This document shows positions 17,433 to 18,646 of a stretch of DNA of 32,000 nt, in pieces (the first letter of the stretch is position 1; every line of letters starts with the position of its first letter). This stretch comes from Polyangiaceae bacterium (GTDB lineage Bacteria > Myxococcota_A > Polyangia > Polyangiales > Polyangiaceae): contig JAYTOQ010000105.1 of NCBI GenBank assembly GCA_043747665.1, positions 15,227-47,226 on the forward strand, in the 5' to 3' direction. The position numbers and the translations under genes are program-made. The notes beneath the pieces are model-generated. The model had not been told where the DNA came from, searched no databases, and worked only from the letters and a program-made list of their open reading frames with translations.

Positions 17433-17506
17433 GGGTCCGTAGCGCACCGGGCAAGCGCACTCGACTCTTGATCGAGGTGGTGAGGGCTCGATTCCCTCCG
17501 GACCTA
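17433..17506 (+). tRNA. tRNA-like, anticodon CTT (Lys), non-canonical T-loop
   Basis: All four stems pair: GGGTCCG/CGGACCT, GCGC/GCGC, CTCGA/TCGAG and GAGGG/CCCTC. The anticodon loop is CTCTTGA. The T-loop is CTCGATT (C at position 54). Confidence 0.65.
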
Positions 17507-17544
17507 CCGGGCGACGTGTGCCTCGTGCACGCCGCTCTGCTCAC

Positions 17545-17616
17545 TCCGGGATCGTCTAGCTGGCAGGACGCTGGTCTCTGAAACCAGAAACGCAGGTTCG
17601 ACTCCTGCGCCCGGAA
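17545..17616 (+). tRNA. tRNA-Gln-like, anticodon CTG
   Basis: Acceptor TCCGGGA/GCCCGGA has U1-A72 and one A-G mismatch. The other stems are GTCT/GGAC, CTGGT/ACCAG and GCAGG/CCTGC. The anticodon loop is CTCTGAA and the T-loop TTCGACT is canonical. Confidence 0.7.
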
Positions 17617-17710
17617 CCGAGCCACGCGTGGGGCAACCCGCACGCGGCCATGCTCTCTGAAAACTTGGCGCCACTAGGCTCGTCCCGCTCTTTGCGGGCG
17701 AGCCATTCAT

Positions 17711-17783
17711 TCCAGCGAAGCCGAATGGTCAGGCAACCGGCTGTTAACCGGTCATCTCGGGGGTTCGATTCCTCCCACTCGAG
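17711..17783 (+). tRNA. tRNA-like, anticodon GTT (Asn), degenerate
   Basis: The anticodon arm ACCGG-CTGTTAA-CCGGT is perfect. The T arm is GGGGG-TTCGATT-CCTCC. The acceptor pairs only 5/7 and the D stem has 3 bp. Confidence 0.35.
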
Positions 17784-17873
17784 CTCTCGCGTGCACACGC
17801 AGGCGAGGACTGTTCTGGATCTCGGAGCGCCCACGCTCGAGGCCCCCGCACGCGCTGACCCGCGTGCGATCGT

Positions 17874-17944
17874 GCCCATGCTTCTCGCTGGTCGAGCACC
17901 CGCTTCGTACGCGGTGTGATCCGGTTCGACTCCGAGCGTGGACT
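17874..17944 (+). tRNA. tRNA-like, anticodon CGT (Thr), degenerate
   Basis: The loop is TTCGTAC, the D arm is TCTC-GCTGGTC-GAGC, and the T-loop is TTCGACT. Each of the four stems has one mismatch. A partial copy of its 5' end (GCCCACGCT) lies at 17829. Confidence 0.35.
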
Positions 17945-17952
17945 CTCGACTT

Positions 17953-18023
17953 GCCCCCGTCATCGAAAGGTCAGGATCTCCGTCTTTCAATCGGAGCACG
18001 TCGGTCGAATCCGATCGGGGGTG
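17953..18023 (+). tRNA. tRNA-Glu-like, anticodon TTC, 6-nt T-loop
   Basis: The acceptor is GCCCCCG/CGGGGGT. The anticodon arm is TCCGT-CTTTCAA-TCGGA. The T stem GTCGG/CCGAT closes only TCGAAT. Confidence 0.5.
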
Positions 18024-18038
18024 CAATGTTCACGTATC

Positions 18039-18111
18039 GGGCTGTGAGCTAGTCGCAGGGTAGCGTCCGTCTGAAGCACGGAAGAGCGTGGTGCGAGCCC
18101 ACGACAGCCCA
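18039..18111 (+). tRNA. tRNA-like, anticodon GAA (Phe), T-loop TGCGAGC
   Basis: All stems are perfect: GGGCTGT/ACAGCCC, GCTA/TAGC, TCCGT/ACGGA and CGTGG/CCACG. The anticodon loop is CTGAAGC. Position 55 is G and position 8 is G. Confidence 0.65.
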
Positions 18112-18197
18112 CCCTTGTTGGGCCCGCAGGGCGCCCTCGCGAGATTCGGCGCTGCGCGCCGACCGGCGTGCAAGGCATGCGCTTTCAGGTGACGGCA

Positions 18198-18227
18198 TTG
18201 ACAAATTACGGACGGATAGTCTTGAAT
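18198..18227 (+). promoter_or_regulatory. Sigma70-like promoter candidate (TTGACA-N18-TTGAAT)
   Basis: A perfect -35 TTGACA sits at 18198-18203 and a 4/6 -10 TTGAAT at 18222-18227. The predicted start site is 5-7 nt later, at the 5' end of the His-like element (18232/18233). Confidence 0.3.
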
Positions 18228-18232
18228 GCATG

Positions 18233-18303
18233 GTGTATTTACTTGTCCAGTGACGGGGCTGACTGTGAATCAGCGGAGGCGGGTGCGATCCCCGTACGAC
18301 ACG
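18233..18303 (+). tRNA. tRNA-like, anticodon GTG (His), T-loop TGCGATC, weak acceptor/D arm
   Basis: The anticodon arm GCTGA-CTGTGAA-TCAGC is perfect. The T arm is GCGGG-TGCGATC-CCCGT. The acceptor GTGTATT/ACGACAC pairs 5/7, and the D stem relies on G-U pairs. Confidence 0.4.
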
Positions 18304-18330
18304 CGAAGAGAAGAGTCCTCGTAGCCAATT

Positions 18331-18355
18331 GGAGAGGCAGCGGTTTCGCCTCTCC
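18331..18355 (+). ncRNA. Perfect 8-bp hairpin GGAGAGGC-N9-GCCTCTCC (acceptor-stem-like minihelix)
   Basis: Read directly. It is preceded by the D-arm-like GTAGCCAATTGG. It does not complete a cloverleaf. Confidence 0.3.
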
Positions 18356-18487
18356 TTCGCGAGAGTAGTGACCTCCACGTTGCGGGACGAAAAGACGATG
18401 AATTGTTGAATTCGTCAATGTGCTGCGCGATGCGCGAGCATCATATCTTCACCCCTCTCGTCGAAGCACTCTACGAACAGGACACAC

Positions 18488-18558
18488 GCGCGCATCGTTC
18501 AACAGCAGGACCTCACTCTTCCAAACTGATGATGAGGGTGCGACTCCCTCTGCACGCT
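18488..18558 (+). tRNA. tRNA-like, anticodon TCC (Gly), T-loop TGCGACT
   Basis: Acceptor GCGCGCA/TGCACGC pairs 6/7, the D stem is GTTC/GGAC, and TCACT/ACTGA pairs 4/5. The T arm is GAGGG-TGCGACT-CCCTC. The anticodon loop is CTTCCAA. Confidence 0.55.
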
Positions 18559-18574
18559 CTCGACAAGCATCTCC

Positions 18575-18646
18575 GAGCCGGTTCTCCGATGAGGAGCGCG
18601 GTCTGCAAAACCGCGTGTGAGGGTTTGACTCCCTCTCGGCTCTCCA
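18575..18646 (+). tRNA. tRNA-Cys-like, anticodon GCA, T-loop TTTGACT, short D-loop, encoded CCA
   Basis: The acceptor is GAGCCGG/TCGGCTC. The D stem CTCC/GGAG has a 5-nt loop GATGA without GG. The anticodon arm is GCGGT-CTGCAAA-ACCGC and the T arm is GAGGG-TTTGACT-CCCTC. The discriminator is T (as in tRNA-Cys), followed by CCA. Confidence 0.65.

What the first reader, a model, noticed from the sequence alone, without database searches (positions are those of the whole stretch)
17433..18646. Recurrent, non-random T-loop substitutions in otherwise well-paired tRNA-like genes
Three elements with perfect or near-perfect stems carry the same unusual T-loop start TGCGA, with G in place of the near-universal U55. 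They are 18039 (CGTGG-TGCGAGC-CCACG), 18233 (GCGGG-TGCGATC-CCCGT) and 18488 (GAGGG-TGCGACT-CCCTC).

Two others start CTCGA (C54): 17433, and 21152 outside this span. The Cys-like element at 18575 has TTTGACT (T at position 56) together with a 5-nt D-loop lacking the GG that normally pairs with positions 55/56. The element at 17953 has a 6-nt T-loop.

Random decay would hit stems as often as loops. Here the stems are kept and the elbow-forming positions change repeatedly and in parallel. That points to selection for an altered D/T-loop elbow. Possible reasons are escape from T-loop-recognising nucleases or modification enzymes, altered ribosome or EF-Tu handling, or a non-translational tRNA-mimic role.
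Basis: seen in the sequence. Interest (0 to 1): 0.7.

Follow-up and report, generated by a model that had tools for sequence, protein, structure and literature searches.

The report
tRNA array with alternative elbow pairs
The odd T-loops lie in a decaying remnant of a large extra tRNA gene array in a Labilithrix (myxobacterial) chromosome: three carry a conserved swap of the near-universal G18•U55 elbow contact to A18•G55, a natural tRNA variant I found no description of, while most of the other oddities are recent damage.

Summary
All the T-loop sequences are as reported. They fall into two classes.

**Conserved elbow variants.**
- TGCGA (G55) in Phe-GAA (18039), His-GTG (18233) and Gly-TCC (18488) is kept in every sister strain and in orthologous 30-34-gene arrays of related Polyangiales.
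- G55 always comes with A instead of G at D-loop position 18. Counts: G55 with AG 129, with GG 0; U55 with GG 1017, with AG 11.
- Both states occur within 14 orthologue groups, and the stems show compensatory changes.
- In some uncultured phage-like contigs 12-13 of 15-19 tRNAs have A18•G55, next to RtcB, RlaP, Band-7 and HNH genes.
- Cys-GCA U56 is likewise paired with A19.

**Recent lesions.** C54 (17433, 21152) and the 6-nt T-loops (17357, 17953) are absent from strains 94-97% identical and from orthologues.

**State of the array.** The stems are not generally kept. This species retains about 14 of more than 30 tRNAs. Ro60 and Band-7 are pseudogenes. tRNA-like elements vary as much as spacers, except Phe-GAA, Gln-CTG and Glu-CTC.

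**Interpretation.** A18•G55 is most likely a structurally compensated replacement of G18•Ψ55, matching the UGNAA plus intercalated-A pattern of non-tRNA T-loops. Why it is favoured is unknown. Nuclease escape is a hypothesis.

The parts
17357..17429 (+). tRNA-Lys(TTT)-like gene with a 6-nt T-loop (TTCAAC) and 2 anticodon-stem mismatches; a lesion of the window lineage
   Evidence: Sister strains and orthologues have GAGGG-TTCGACT-CCCTC. 16% of its columns vary between strains.
17433..17506 (+). tRNA-Lys(CTT) gene with perfect stems but C54 (17487); C54 is derived in this lineage
   Evidence: 58 bits. All sister strains and all 14 orthologues have T54. Sister haplotypes carry 1-3 stem mismatches instead.
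17545..17616 (+). tRNA-Gln(CTG), canonical elbow, still under constraint
   Evidence: 55 bits. Only 1 of 72 columns varies among 9 haplotypes.
17711..17783 (+). tRNA-Asn(GTT)-like, canonical T-loop, 3 stem mismatches in the window against 1 in sister strains
17874..17943 (+). tRNA-Thr(CGT)-like, canonical T-loop, several stem mismatches that sister strains lack
17953..18023 (+). tRNA-Glu(TTC)-like with a 6-nt T-loop caused by a 1-nt deletion in the window lineage
   Evidence: All sister strains and all orthologues have TTCGAAT or TTCGATT.
18039..18111 (+). tRNA-Phe(GAA) with the alternative elbow A18 (18057) and G55 (18093); all stems perfect; the best-preserved G55 member
   Evidence: 1 of 73 columns varies and there are 0 stem mismatches in all 9 haplotypes. 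Orthologue L024 has gtccAGtga/tgcgacc while orthologue L022 has gtctGGtga/ttcgatt.
18233..18302 (+). tRNA-His(GTG) pseudogene that retains the inherited A18 (18249) and G55 (18285); acceptor and D stems damaged, 1-nt deletion
   Evidence: 21% of columns vary. Intact orthologues have tctAGtga/tgcgatc in L014-L018 and L027, against tctGGtga/ttcgatc in L023, L024 and L031.
18488..18558 (+). tRNA-Gly(TCC) with A18 (18504) and G55 (18540); one acceptor and one anticodon-stem mismatch in the window
   Evidence: (40.5 bits). Orthologues have aacAGca/tgcgact. The huge-phage relative LR756511 has aacGGca/ttcgact.
18575..18643 (+). Compact tRNA-Cys(GCA): 5-nt D-loop, 6-bp anticodon stem, 3-nt variable loop. 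U56 (18626) is matched by GA rather than GG in the D-loop (18591-18592), so A19:U56 replaces G19:C56. All stems perfect.
   Evidence: (best Rfam match tRNA-Sec, 35.8 bits). The U56 plus no-GG state is shared with L006, L013, L019 and L020, while C56 orthologues have GG. General 19:56 covariation is seen in phage tRNAs.
18714..18787 (+). tRNA-Leu(CAG) of class-I shape (short variable region), canonical elbow, 2 stem mismatches
   Evidence: 85% identical to the 75-nt tRNA-Leu of Gordonia phage Phendrix.
18856..19389 (+). HNH endonuclease gene; the only intact protein gene of the island
   Evidence: Pfam HNH_5 and HNH. Identical protein in 13 metagenome contigs. Homologues lie inside tRNA arrays of Polyangiales and phages.
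19489..19562 (+). tRNA-Arg(ACG)-like, canonical T-loop, decaying
   Evidence: 23% of columns vary.
19593..19666 (+). tRNA-Glu(CTC), canonical, invariant among strains
   Evidence: 56.8 bits. 0 of 74 columns vary.
19701..21049 (+). Ro60-like (TROVE + vWA) pseudogene: three reading frames and an internal deletion
   Evidence: Pfam vWA_Ro60 on the 3' part. tblastn with the intact L013 protein (534 aa) hits frames 3, 1 and 2. Intact TROVE+vWA orthologues exist in L013 and L014. Gene calls differ between strains.
21152..21225 (+). tRNA-Val(CAC)-like with C54 (21206) and a C·T mismatch in the T-stem; lies inside a 524-bp segment missing from several strains
   Evidence: Orthologues L014, L016 and L020 have GAGAG-TTCGATC-CTCTC.
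21302..21854 (+). Remnant of an SPFH/Band-7 gene (frameshifted, N-terminal half missing)
   Evidence: tblastn with the L013 Band-7 protein hits three frames. Band-7 also flanks the arrays in L013, L177 and L188.

Best explanation
**What the region is (shown).**
- Window 17.3-21.9 kb is a degenerating copy of an old array of extra tRNA genes that resembles phage tRNA clusters.
- The array contains HNH, Ro60-like and Band-7 genes.
- It sits between ComM and an AHSA1/M18-peptidase pair in Labilithrix and related Polyangiaceae.
- Intact versions hold 30-34 tRNAs. This species keeps about 14, many of them damaged.

**The G55 T-loops (covariation shown; geometry inferred).**
- The TGCGA T-loops belong to a conserved subclass of these array tRNAs in which the tertiary contact G18•U55(Ψ55) is replaced by A18•G55.
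- T54, A58, G53:C61 and the outer elbow pair G19:C56 are retained.
- I infer that A18 still intercalates between bases 57 and 58 and pairs with G55. This is how non-tRNA T-loops work (consensus UGNAA with a donated adenosine).
- On that reading the L-shape, and the flat G19:C56 face used by RNase P and the ribosome, are preserved, while Ψ55 and Gm18 cannot be made.

**The Cys U56 variant.** The compact tRNA-Cys shows the analogous swap of G19:C56 to A19:U56.

**The other oddities (shown).** C54 (twice) and the 6-nt T-loops (twice) are recent uncompensated lesions of this lineage.

**What is not known.** The A18•G55 tRNAs are most likely ordinary decoding tRNAs of a back-up set. What favours the swap is undetermined.
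For: **Array family and synteny**
- HNH homologues sit in arrays of 21-34 tRNAs in L013-L020 and L027.
- The same ComM / AHSA1 / M18 flanks are present.
- Ro60 is intact in L013 and L014.

**Decay in this species**
- Ro60 and Band-7 are frameshifted.
- Variable columns: tRNA-like elements 9.8%, spacers 11.3%, HNH coding sequence 1.7%.
- Stem mismatches differ between haplotypes.
- C54 and the 6-nt loops are absent from sister strains and orthologues.

**G55 is inherited and conserved**
- It is present in all 9 haplotypes.
- It recurs in the same isoacceptors across species: His, Ala-CGC/GGC, Gly-TCC/GCC, Val-GAC, Met, Thr-GGT, Gln-TTG and Leu-CAA.

**Covariation of positions 18 and 55**
- A register-aware count over 1,265 tRNAs gives G55: AG 129, GG 0, unassigned 11; U55: GG 1017, AG 11, unassigned 84. 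Fisher p is about 4e-159, without phylogenetic correction.
- 14 orthologue clusters contain both states, always with the two positions switched together.
- In the gapless Gly-GCC alignment, column 17 tracks column 53 perfectly (11 against 5 sequences).
- In that alignment 15 of 21 stem pairs show compensatory changes.

**Signs of function**
- Ala tRNAs with G55 keep G3:U70 (sequences).
- Rfam scores G55 tRNAs at 40-60 bits.
- Phe-GAA (G55) is nearly invariant and perfectly paired in all strains.

**Structural rationale**
- Non-tRNA T-loops have G at position 2 and a donated adenosine that pairs with it, consensus UGHAA (bioRxiv 10.1101/2022.12.26.521914).
- G55 tRNAs are enriched for A57: 24% against 7% in the genome arrays, 73% against 11% in the phage-like contigs.
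- In yeast SUP4oc no single mutation at G18-U55 is tolerated (PMC4117946), which fits a compensated double change.

**19:56 covariation**
-.
Against: - There is no experimental or 3D evidence that A18 and G55 pair or that these tRNAs are expressed, charged or used.
- Positions 18-19 were assigned by ARAGORN structures plus a register rule. Only the Gly-GCC group was checked in a gapless alignment.
- The Fisher test ignores shared ancestry. The 14 clusters could overstate the number of independent events if whole tRNA genes or arms move between arrays.
- In the window itself two of the three G55 genes (His, Gly) are damaged.
- No sigma-70-like promoter or intrinsic terminator was found on the + strand.
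- Rfam did not report Phe-GAA or His even at E<=10.
- Housekeeping tRNAs of Labilithrix were not available, so a genome-wide trait is not excluded.
Confidence: 0.85

Rival explanations
1. All deviant T-loops, including TGCGA, are random pseudogene decay of a dead island. The recurrence of G55 is chance, or GC-biased mutation acting on T55.
For: - The island is decaying: Ro60 and Band-7 are pseudogenes.
- tRNA-like elements vary as much as spacers.
- Stem mismatches are uncompensated.
- The host genome is 68% GC.
Against: - G55 is fixed in all strains and in orthologues of species whose flanking proteins are only 60-80% identical.
- It is always coupled to A18, a G-to-A change that runs against GC bias.
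- G55 tRNAs in intact arrays have perfect stems with compensatory substitutions.
- Phe-GAA (G55) is one of the three best-conserved genes of the array.
Confidence: 0.04
2. A18•G55 is positively selected as protection in a conflict. Back-up or phage tRNAs with this elbow would escape a nuclease, toxin or host factor that reads G18/Ψ55 or the T-loop. Alternatively they would be told apart from host tRNAs by the element's own enzymes.
For: - In phage-like contigs L174, L177, L178 and L188, 12-13 of 15-19 tRNAs have G55.
- These arrays lie next to RtcB RNA ligase, RlaP, Band-7 and HNH. The Labilithrix arrays carry Ro60.
- T-loop-cutting toxins exist: CdiA-CT E479 cleaves between the conserved T and Ψ (PMC9086364).
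- The long array of Anabaena is induced under translational stress, and its authors discuss RtcB acting in concert with the array tRNAs (PMC8421152).
- The swap was acquired in many isoacceptors, and no reversal was seen within the Labilithrix clade.
Against: - No candidate nuclease was identified in any locus.
- 70-80% of the tRNAs in the Labilithrix arrays keep the canonical elbow.
- 757 tRNAs scored in phage arrays next to HNH homologues (794 found in all) include only one TGC loop.
- Stability of G55 once acquired is also expected from the two-step barrier alone.
Confidence: 0.3
3. A18•G55 is a nearly neutral, structurally equivalent alternative. It arises by compensatory double substitution, which is easier in redundant array tRNAs under relaxed selection, and then persists because reverting also takes two steps.
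For: - The tRNAs are extra copies. Coupled switches occur in 14 orthologue clusters.
- The outer pair G19:C56 is untouched.
- Other elbow pairs also covary in mobile-element tRNAs: 19:56 variants, and T-loops reading A54...T58 ('atcgtNN'), which look like a swap of the T54•A58 pair.
Against: - Neutral drift does not easily explain arrays in which about 70-85% of tRNAs carry G55.
- It also does not explain the near absence of G55 from hundreds of other phage array tRNAs.
- No intermediate states were seen: G55 with GG 0 cases, U55 with AG 11 of 1112.
Confidence: 0.35
4. The G55 elements are not decoding tRNAs but tRNA mimics. For example, they could be Y-RNA-like ligands of the neighbouring Ro60 protein, or substrates for non-ribosomal aminoacyl transfer.
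For: - A Ro60-like gene lies inside the arrays.
- Natural elbow-deficient tRNAs with non-ribosomal roles exist: S. aureus non-proteinogenic tRNAGly lacks G19, which is replaced by U19 in NP2 (PMC4574755).
Against: - G55 tRNAs have full cloverleaves, 7-nt anticodon loops and standard anticodons for at least 13 amino acids.
- They keep identity elements such as G3:U70 in Ala.
- In the Labilithrix arrays His and Ala are represented only by G55 genes.
- Rfam finds no Y RNA or YrlA in the window or in L014 and L177.
- G55-rich arrays L177, L178 and L188 show no Ro60 in the stretches examined.
Confidence: 0.05

Closest known systems
Long tRNA gene arrays ('tRNA array units' / L-arrays) of bacteria (Tran et al. 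2015, PMC4758250; Santamaria-Gomez et al. 2021, PMC8421152)
   Same: - Dozens of extra tRNA genes on one strand at more than 2 per kb.
- Spread by horizontal transfer and related to phage clusters.
- Some members are pseudogenes.
- Linked to translational stress and RtcB in Anabaena.
   Different: - Neither paper's text mentions T-loop, U55/G18 or myxobacteria.
- Here 20-30% of members (up to about 85% in phage-like contigs) carry A18•G55.
- The array embeds HNH, Ro60 and Band-7 genes.
- It is syntenic across a myxobacterial family.
- The window copy has fallen below 20 genes.
Actinophage tRNA clusters with Ro-like protein, nucleotidyltransferase and HNH genes (Streptomyces phage Tomas, Gordonia phage Phendrix, Corynebacterium phage StAB)
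   Same: - tRNA clusters interspersed with small ORFs.
- 'RO-like RNA binding protein', nucleotidyltransferase or HNH genes are present.
- Short-variable-arm tRNA-Leu, 85% identical to the window's Leu-CAG.
   Different: All tRNAs examined in these isolated phages have canonical TTC T-loops and GG D-loops.
T-loop motif outside tRNA (FMN and cobalamin riboswitches and other large RNAs)
   Same: - Five-nucleotide U-G-N-A-A loop in which a donated adenosine stacks into the loop and pairs with the position-2 guanosine.
- TGCGA/TGCAA plus A18 reproduces this sequence pattern.
   Different: - Those loops dock onto receptors within riboswitches.
- Here the pattern sits in the tRNA elbow, together with the tRNA-specific G19:C56 pair.
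- The geometry is inferred, not observed.
Natural tRNAs with non-canonical elbows: tRNAPyl, mitochondrial tRNAs, S. aureus non-proteinogenic tRNAGly (PMC7609411, PMC4574755)
   Same: - They depart from G18G19 / T54Ψ55C56.
- The compact Cys-GCA here shares the 6-bp anticodon stem, 3-nt variable loop and small D-loop of tRNAPyl and mt-tRNASer(UCN).
   Different: - Those tRNAs lose or rebuild the D/T-loop contacts and are single specialised species.
- Here one tertiary pair is exchanged in an otherwise standard cloverleaf, across at least 13 amino-acid specificities.

Membership tests
tRNA (Rfam RF00005 / canonical cloverleaf) | Score at or above the Rfam gathering threshold (29 bits) | tested here: inconclusive
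   - Gly-TCC scores 40.5 bits, so the threshold is met.
- Phe-GAA and His-GTG are not reported even at E<=10.
- ARAGORN at default settings calls Phe and Gly.
- Intact G55 orthologues in L014 and L177 score 40-60 bits.
tRNA (Rfam RF00005 / canonical cloverleaf) | Four stems (7/4/5/5 bp), 7-nt anticodon loop with U33, T54, A58, G53:C61 | tested here: met
   - Phe-GAA has all stems perfect.
- Gly-TCC has 2 mismatches.
- His is degraded in the window but intact in orthologues.
tRNA (Rfam RF00005 / canonical cloverleaf) | Tertiary pair G18•U55(Ψ55) | tested here: not met
   It is replaced by A18 and G55 in the three window genes and in 129 of 140 G55 tRNAs surveyed; the other 11 could not be assigned.
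tRNA (Rfam RF00005 / canonical cloverleaf) | Tertiary Watson-Crick pair G19:C56 | tested here: met
   - G follows A18, and C56 is present in all TGC loops.
- In Cys-GCA it is replaced by A19:U56.
tRNA array unit / L-array | At least 20 tRNA genes at 2 or more per kb (definition quoted in the PMC4758250 abstract) | tested here: not met
   - The window has about 14 tRNA-like elements in 3.9 kb. Density is met, number is not.
- Orthologous loci have 30-34 tRNAs in about 8.5 kb, which meets the definition.
- The window copy is therefore a reduced remnant of a member.
T-loop motif with G at position 2 (non-tRNA type) | Sequence U-G-N-R-A closed by a helix, with an adenosine available to intercalate | tested here: met
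   - The loops read TGCGA or TGCAA, and A18 is in the D-loop.
- A57 is enriched among G55 tRNAs.
T-loop motif with G at position 2 (non-tRNA type) | Three-dimensional fold: reverse-Hoogsteen 1-5 pair, base intercalated between positions 4 and 5 and paired to position 2 | not testable with these tools
   No RNA 3D prediction or probing was available. The fold is inferred from covariation only.
Ro60 / TROVE RNA-binding protein | Intact ORF with TROVE and vWA domains | tested here: not met
   - In the window only the vWA_Ro60 part is in one frame. The gene is split over three frames with a deletion.
- It is intact in L013 and L014, with TROVE plus vWA_Ro60.
Bacterial Y RNA (YrlA-type tRNA mimic) | Match to an Rfam Y-RNA model next to Ro60 | tested here: not met
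   No such match at E<=10 in window 16500-22500, nor at E<=0.1 in L014 and L177.

The most novel reading that the evidence does not exclude
A18•G55 defines a previously unrecognised class of natural tRNAs carried by phage-like elements and by myxobacterial back-up arrays.
- They would have evolved as a 'hardened' or orthogonal tRNA set that folds normally but lacks U55/Ψ55 and G18.
- They would therefore escape a T-loop- or elbow-directed tRNase, or another host factor that reads these bases.
- They would work together with the linked RNA-repair genes (RtcB, RlaP, Ro60) to keep translation going during tRNA-targeted attack.
Probability: 0.3. Interest if true: 0.85.

Novelty: new variant of a known kind. 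Interest (0 to 1): 0.68.

Why it matters
- U55 (as Ψ55) and G18 are among the most conserved nucleotides in biology. [quoted passage not shown] In the yeast SUP4oc suppressor, no single mutation at G18-U55 is tolerated.
- This locus led to more than 130 natural tRNAs, for at least 13 amino acids, that exchange this contact for A18•G55. They remain under clear structural constraint.
- The set includes phage-like arrays in which almost every tRNA has the variant.
- This gives a natural test of what the inner elbow pair and Ψ55/Gm18 are needed for.
- It links the tRNA elbow to the general T-loop rule (G at position 2 plus an intercalated A).
- It offers a candidate scaffold for orthogonal or nuclease-resistant tRNAs.
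- It gives a sequence marker for a family of arrays associated with RNA-repair genes.
- It shows that annotation pipelines under-call such genes. Rfam missed Phe-GAA, and ARAGORN and Rfam each found only 8 of about 14 elements.

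Tried and rejected
1. blastn of the island against GenBank phages gave only single-tRNA hits. No source phage was identified.
2. I looked for a Y RNA or YrlA next to Ro60 with Rfam at permissive thresholds and found none.
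3. The promoter and terminator scan of 17000-19750 found nothing on the + strand.
4. I first read Cys T56 as recent decay, because most sister strains have C56. I rejected this after finding that:
   - L013, L019 and L020 share U56 with a GG-less D-loop;
   - the C56 sister strains carry 4 stem mismatches;
   - 19:56 covaries in phage tRNAs.
5. A naive count of 'GG anywhere in the D-loop' and a 'leftmost RG' rule both misassigned registers. I replaced them with a register-aware rule that prefers GG and with a gapless orthologue alignment.
6. The viral pattern scan TCCAACAGCAGGA...GGTGCRA gave 12 hits. Eight were chance matches in coding sequence with no tRNA.
7. An RlaP-based search for more G55-rich arrays found only 2 loci.
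8. Isolated phages whose tRNAs are closest to the G55 tRNAs (StAB, Tomas, Phendrix) are canonical.
9. Eight full-text literature searches and several papers read yielded no description of A18•G55 tRNAs. The library is incomplete, so absence is not proof.
10. Housekeeping tRNAs of Labilithrix could not be obtained.

Full report
**1. What the window is**

The window is 66-72% GC, apart from a dip to 57-65% at 17-20 kb and 64% at 21-22 kb. It encodes ordinary bacterial chromosomal genes:
- PilY1
- a sigma-54 activator with an FHA domain
- RecA
- a ComM-type Mg-chelatase-like protein
- an M18 aminopeptidase
- a Ser/Thr kinase

The closest named genome for the HNH gene in the dip is a Labilithrix MAG at 92% protein identity. 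Other Labilithrix and Polyangiaceae MAGs follow at 73-79%.

The segment from about 17.3 to 21.9 kb holds, all on the + strand:
- about 14 tRNA-like elements
- one intact HNH endonuclease gene
- a Ro60-like gene
- a Band-7 gene remnant

ARAGORN at default settings finds 8 tRNAs. Rfam at gathering score finds 8, but not the same 8. Relaxed ARAGORN adds Thr-CGT, His-GTG, Arg-ACG and Val-CAC.

**2. Check of the observation**

A scan of both strands of the whole window for a perfect 5-bp stem closed by G:C around TGCRANN finds exactly three hairpins, the three reported.

- All three G55 elements have AG, not GG, at D-loop positions 18-19. The D-loops read GTCGC**AG**GG, TCC**AG**TGA and AAC**AG**CA.
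- Lys-TTT (17357) also has a 6-nt T-loop.
- Stems are often not intact.

**3. Population evidence: this copy of the array is decaying**

The exact HNH protein occurs on 13 metagenome contigs.
- Two contigs are 100% identical to the window over the island.
- Eight others are 94-97% identical.

In a 9-haplotype alignment, the share of variable columns is:
- 9.8% in tRNA-like elements
- 11.3% in spacers
- 1.7% in the HNH coding sequence. These contigs were selected for an identical HNH protein, so this figure is biased low.

The elements are heterogeneous:

| Element | Variable columns |
|---|---|
| Phe-GAA | 1.4% |
| Gln-CTG | 1.4% |
| Glu-CTC | 0% |
| Lys-TTT, His, Leu-CAG, Arg-ACG | 16-23% |

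- Phe-GAA and Glu-CTC have no stem mismatch in any haplotype. Gln-CTG has one, the same in all haplotypes.
- Stem mismatches differ between haplotypes without compensation. Cys has 0 in the window and L006 but 4 in the other haplotypes. Lys-CTT has 0 in the window but 1-3 elsewhere.
- The Ro60-like gene is split over three frames with an internal deletion. It is called differently in each strain.
- The Band-7 gene is a frameshifted C-terminal remnant.
- A 524-bp piece containing the Val-like element is missing from several strains.

**4. Which deviations are recent lesions**

| Element | Window | Sister strains and orthologues |
|---|---|---|
| Lys-TTT | 6-nt loop | TTCGACT |
| Glu-TTC | 6-nt loop | TTCGAAT |
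| Lys-CTT | C54 | T54 |
| Val-CAC | C54 plus a C·T mismatch in the T-stem | GAGAG-TTCGATC-CTCTC |

- All orthologues in other species are canonical at these positions.
- These four deviations are therefore lineage-specific damage.

**5. G55 is old, conserved and coupled to A18**

HNH homologues in Labilithrix and Polyangiaceae MAGs lie in arrays of 21-34 tRNAs. The arrays sit between the same flanking genes as in the window: ComM upstream, AHSA1 and M18 peptidase downstream. This is a vertically inherited chromosomal locus.

In these arrays TGCGA or TGCAA T-loops recur in the same isoacceptors: His-GTG, Ala-CGC, Ala-GGC, Gly-TCC, Gly-GCC, Val-GAC, one Met-CAT, Thr-GGT, Gln-TTG and Leu-CAA. In total 82 of 428 tRNAs have them.

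Every one of these has AG where GG is expected in the D-loop. Over 1,265 tRNAs, using a register rule that prefers GG:

| Position 55 | AG at 18-19 | GG at 18-19 | Unassigned |
|---|---|---|---|
| G55 | 129 | 0 | 11 |
| U55 | 11 | 1017 | 84 |

- Fisher p is about 4e-159, with no correction for phylogeny.
- Fourteen clusters of tRNAs with the same anticodon and at least 70% identity contain both states. The two positions always switch together. Examples:
  - His: tctGGtga/ttcgatc against tctAGtga/tgcgatc
  - Phe: gtctGGtga/ttcgatt (L022) against gtccAGtga/tgcgacc (L024 and the window)
- In a gapless 70-column alignment of 16 Gly-GCC orthologues, column 17 (A or G) tracks column 53 (G or T) perfectly.
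- In that alignment 15 of 21 stem pairs show double compensatory changes, including changes within the G55 subset.
- G55 alanine tRNAs keep G3:U70 (sequences).
- Sorangium arrays are entirely canonical. So is the huge-phage relative of the window's Gly-TCC, which has AACGGCA/TTCGACT.
- G55/A18 is therefore the derived state.

**6. The Cys variant is also compensated**

- U56 versions of the compact tRNA-Cys (window, L006, L013, L019, L020) have GA-containing D-loops without GG.
- C56 versions have GG.
- Phage tRNAs show the same Watson-Crick logic. TTTGA loops go with ..GA.. in the D-loop, and TTGGA loops go with ..GC...
- The window's Cys gene, with perfect stems, is therefore the intact ancestral form. 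The C56 sister alleles are the decayed ones.

**7. Wider distribution**

- 794 tRNAs in 80 IMG/VR loci around HNH homologues include only one TGC loop, and it has A18.
- A pattern search found phage-like contigs (L174, L177, L178) with 12-13 of 19 tRNAs carrying A18•G55, and L176 with 4 of 23.
- L178 encodes a gpA-type terminase, an M15 peptidase and RlaP.
- A 122-kb relative (L188) has 13 of 15 tRNAs with G55, next to Band-7, a GNAT acetyltransferase, RlaP, the RtcB RNA ligase and an HNH gene.
- L188 also carries ExoD and an autotransporter-repeat protein. It may be a prophage or a cellular region rather than a free phage.
- Isolated actinophages with related tRNAs are canonical. One of them, Streptomyces phage Tomas, shares the cluster architecture with a Ro-like protein and a nucleotidyltransferase.

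**8. Mechanism**

Established background:
- In the tRNA elbow, G18 intercalates between bases 57 and 58 and bonds to Ψ55.
- G19:C56 forms the outer face.
- Both points are from PMC7912444 and PMC7470943.

Shown here:
- Strict 18/55 coupling.
- Retention of T54, C56, A58, G53:C61 and G19.
- Enrichment of A57 in G55 tRNAs.

Known from other RNAs:
- T-loops outside tRNA prefer G at position 2.
- A donated adenosine pairs with that guanosine.
- The consensus is UGHAA.

Inferred:
- A18•G55 is a structurally equivalent inner elbow pair.
- It leaves the L-shape and the G19:C56 face intact.
- It removes the substrates of TruB (U55) and TrmH (G18).

Also inferred: the tRNAs decode normally. This rests on their complete cloverleaves, standard anticodons and identity elements, and on the fact that His and Ala are represented only by G55 genes in the Labilithrix arrays.

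Why the swap is favoured is open. I weigh three options:
- Near-neutral compensated drift in redundant genes.
- Selection in a conflict. T-loop tRNases exist, and the arrays travel with RNA-repair genes.
- A tRNA-mimic role, which I consider unlikely.

**9. Comparison with what is known, and novelty**

- Long tRNA arrays and phage tRNA clusters with HNH and Ro-like genes are known.
- The two array papers I searched do not mention T-loops, U55/G18 or myxobacteria.
- Neither the review of non-canonical natural tRNAs nor any other paper returned by eight full-text searches describes A18•G55 tRNAs.
- The library is incomplete, so prior description elsewhere cannot be excluded.
- I class the finding as a new variant of a known kind.

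**10. Verdict**

- The 'stems kept' premise is wrong.
- The window's own copy is a dying remnant, but it points to a conserved alternative tRNA elbow that is worth experimental work.

Noticed in passing
window 18714-18787; L013-L042 Leu-CAG/GAG/CAA/TAG; L012 (Gordonia phage Phendrix) 3995-4069: The array tRNAs with leucine anticodons are 74-77 nt long with a short variable region (class-I shape) instead of the long variable arm of bacterial tRNA-Leu. This is conserved across all the arrays and in an isolated actinophage, whose tRNA is 85% identical to the window's.
   Followed up: partly
window 18575-18643; Cys-GCA in L013-L027, L040, L042: tRNA-Cys(GCA) has a compact architecture: 4-6-nt D-loop, no position 26, 6-bp anticodon stem and 3-nt variable loop. 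This resembles tRNAPyl and mt-tRNASer(UCN). Its best Rfam match is tRNA-Sec, at 35.8 bits, below threshold.
   Followed up: partly
L037 4866, L040 5297 and 6559, L042 1335 and 3017; phage loci L110, L112, L135, L139, L168: T-loops reading ATCGT.. or ATCGA.. have A at position 54, often with T at 58. This looks like a swap of the T54•A58 reverse-Hoogsteen pair to A54•U58. L174, L177 and L178 also have AGCAT.. loops that combine A54, G55 and T58.
   Followed up: no
window 18046-18052 (Phe-GAA); His and Val-GAC in L014-L020: The Phe-GAA orthologue group has G8 and G14 instead of U8 and A14. The His and Val-GAC D-loops begin with T14 (tctAGtga). This suggests further non-canonical core contacts in these array tRNAs.
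   Followed up: no
window 19701-21049 and 21302-21854: The Ro60-like (TROVE+vWA) and Band-7/SPFH genes are frameshifted pseudogenes here but intact in L013 and L014. Strains 94-97% identical carry different truncations, and window 21029-21552 is an indel missing from L001, L002, L007 and L008.
   Followed up: yes
L188 6053-12117; L178 1690-2466; L177 1099-1902: Arrays rich in G55 tRNAs are flanked by a recurring gene set: Band-7/SPFH, a GNAT acetyltransferase, RlaP (an RNA-repair-associated Pol-beta-type nucleotidyltransferase), the RtcB RNA ligase and HNH. This looks like a combined tRNA-supply and RNA-repair module.
   Followed up: partly
L177 3116-3213: A stretch of about 98 nt between two tRNA genes is 75-81% identical to unannotated DNA in the Caulobacter phages hit (e.g. 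CcrRogue, CcrBL10, BL57) and in bacteriophage DSS3_MAL1. It may be an unrecognised conserved RNA or a small gene.
   Followed up: no
window 17150-17195: A C-rich low-complexity run (CCCCT/CCCCA repeats) lies just upstream of the array. Its length differs between strains (extra units in L002).
   Followed up: no
L014 7368, L027 7978, L013 3870 (Met-CAT with G55): The G55 methionine tRNA has a C1·A72 or unpaired 1-72 end and a purine-11:pyrimidine-24 D-stem pair. Both are features reminiscent of bacterial initiator tRNA, but the tRNA lacks the three G:C pairs in the anticodon stem.
   Followed up: no
window 17711-17943 compared with L001-L010: Several of the window-lineage differences that break stems in Asn and Thr are A in the window where sister strains have G. 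This is consistent with GC-to-AT mutation pressure on unconstrained DNA in a 68% GC genome.
   Followed up: partly
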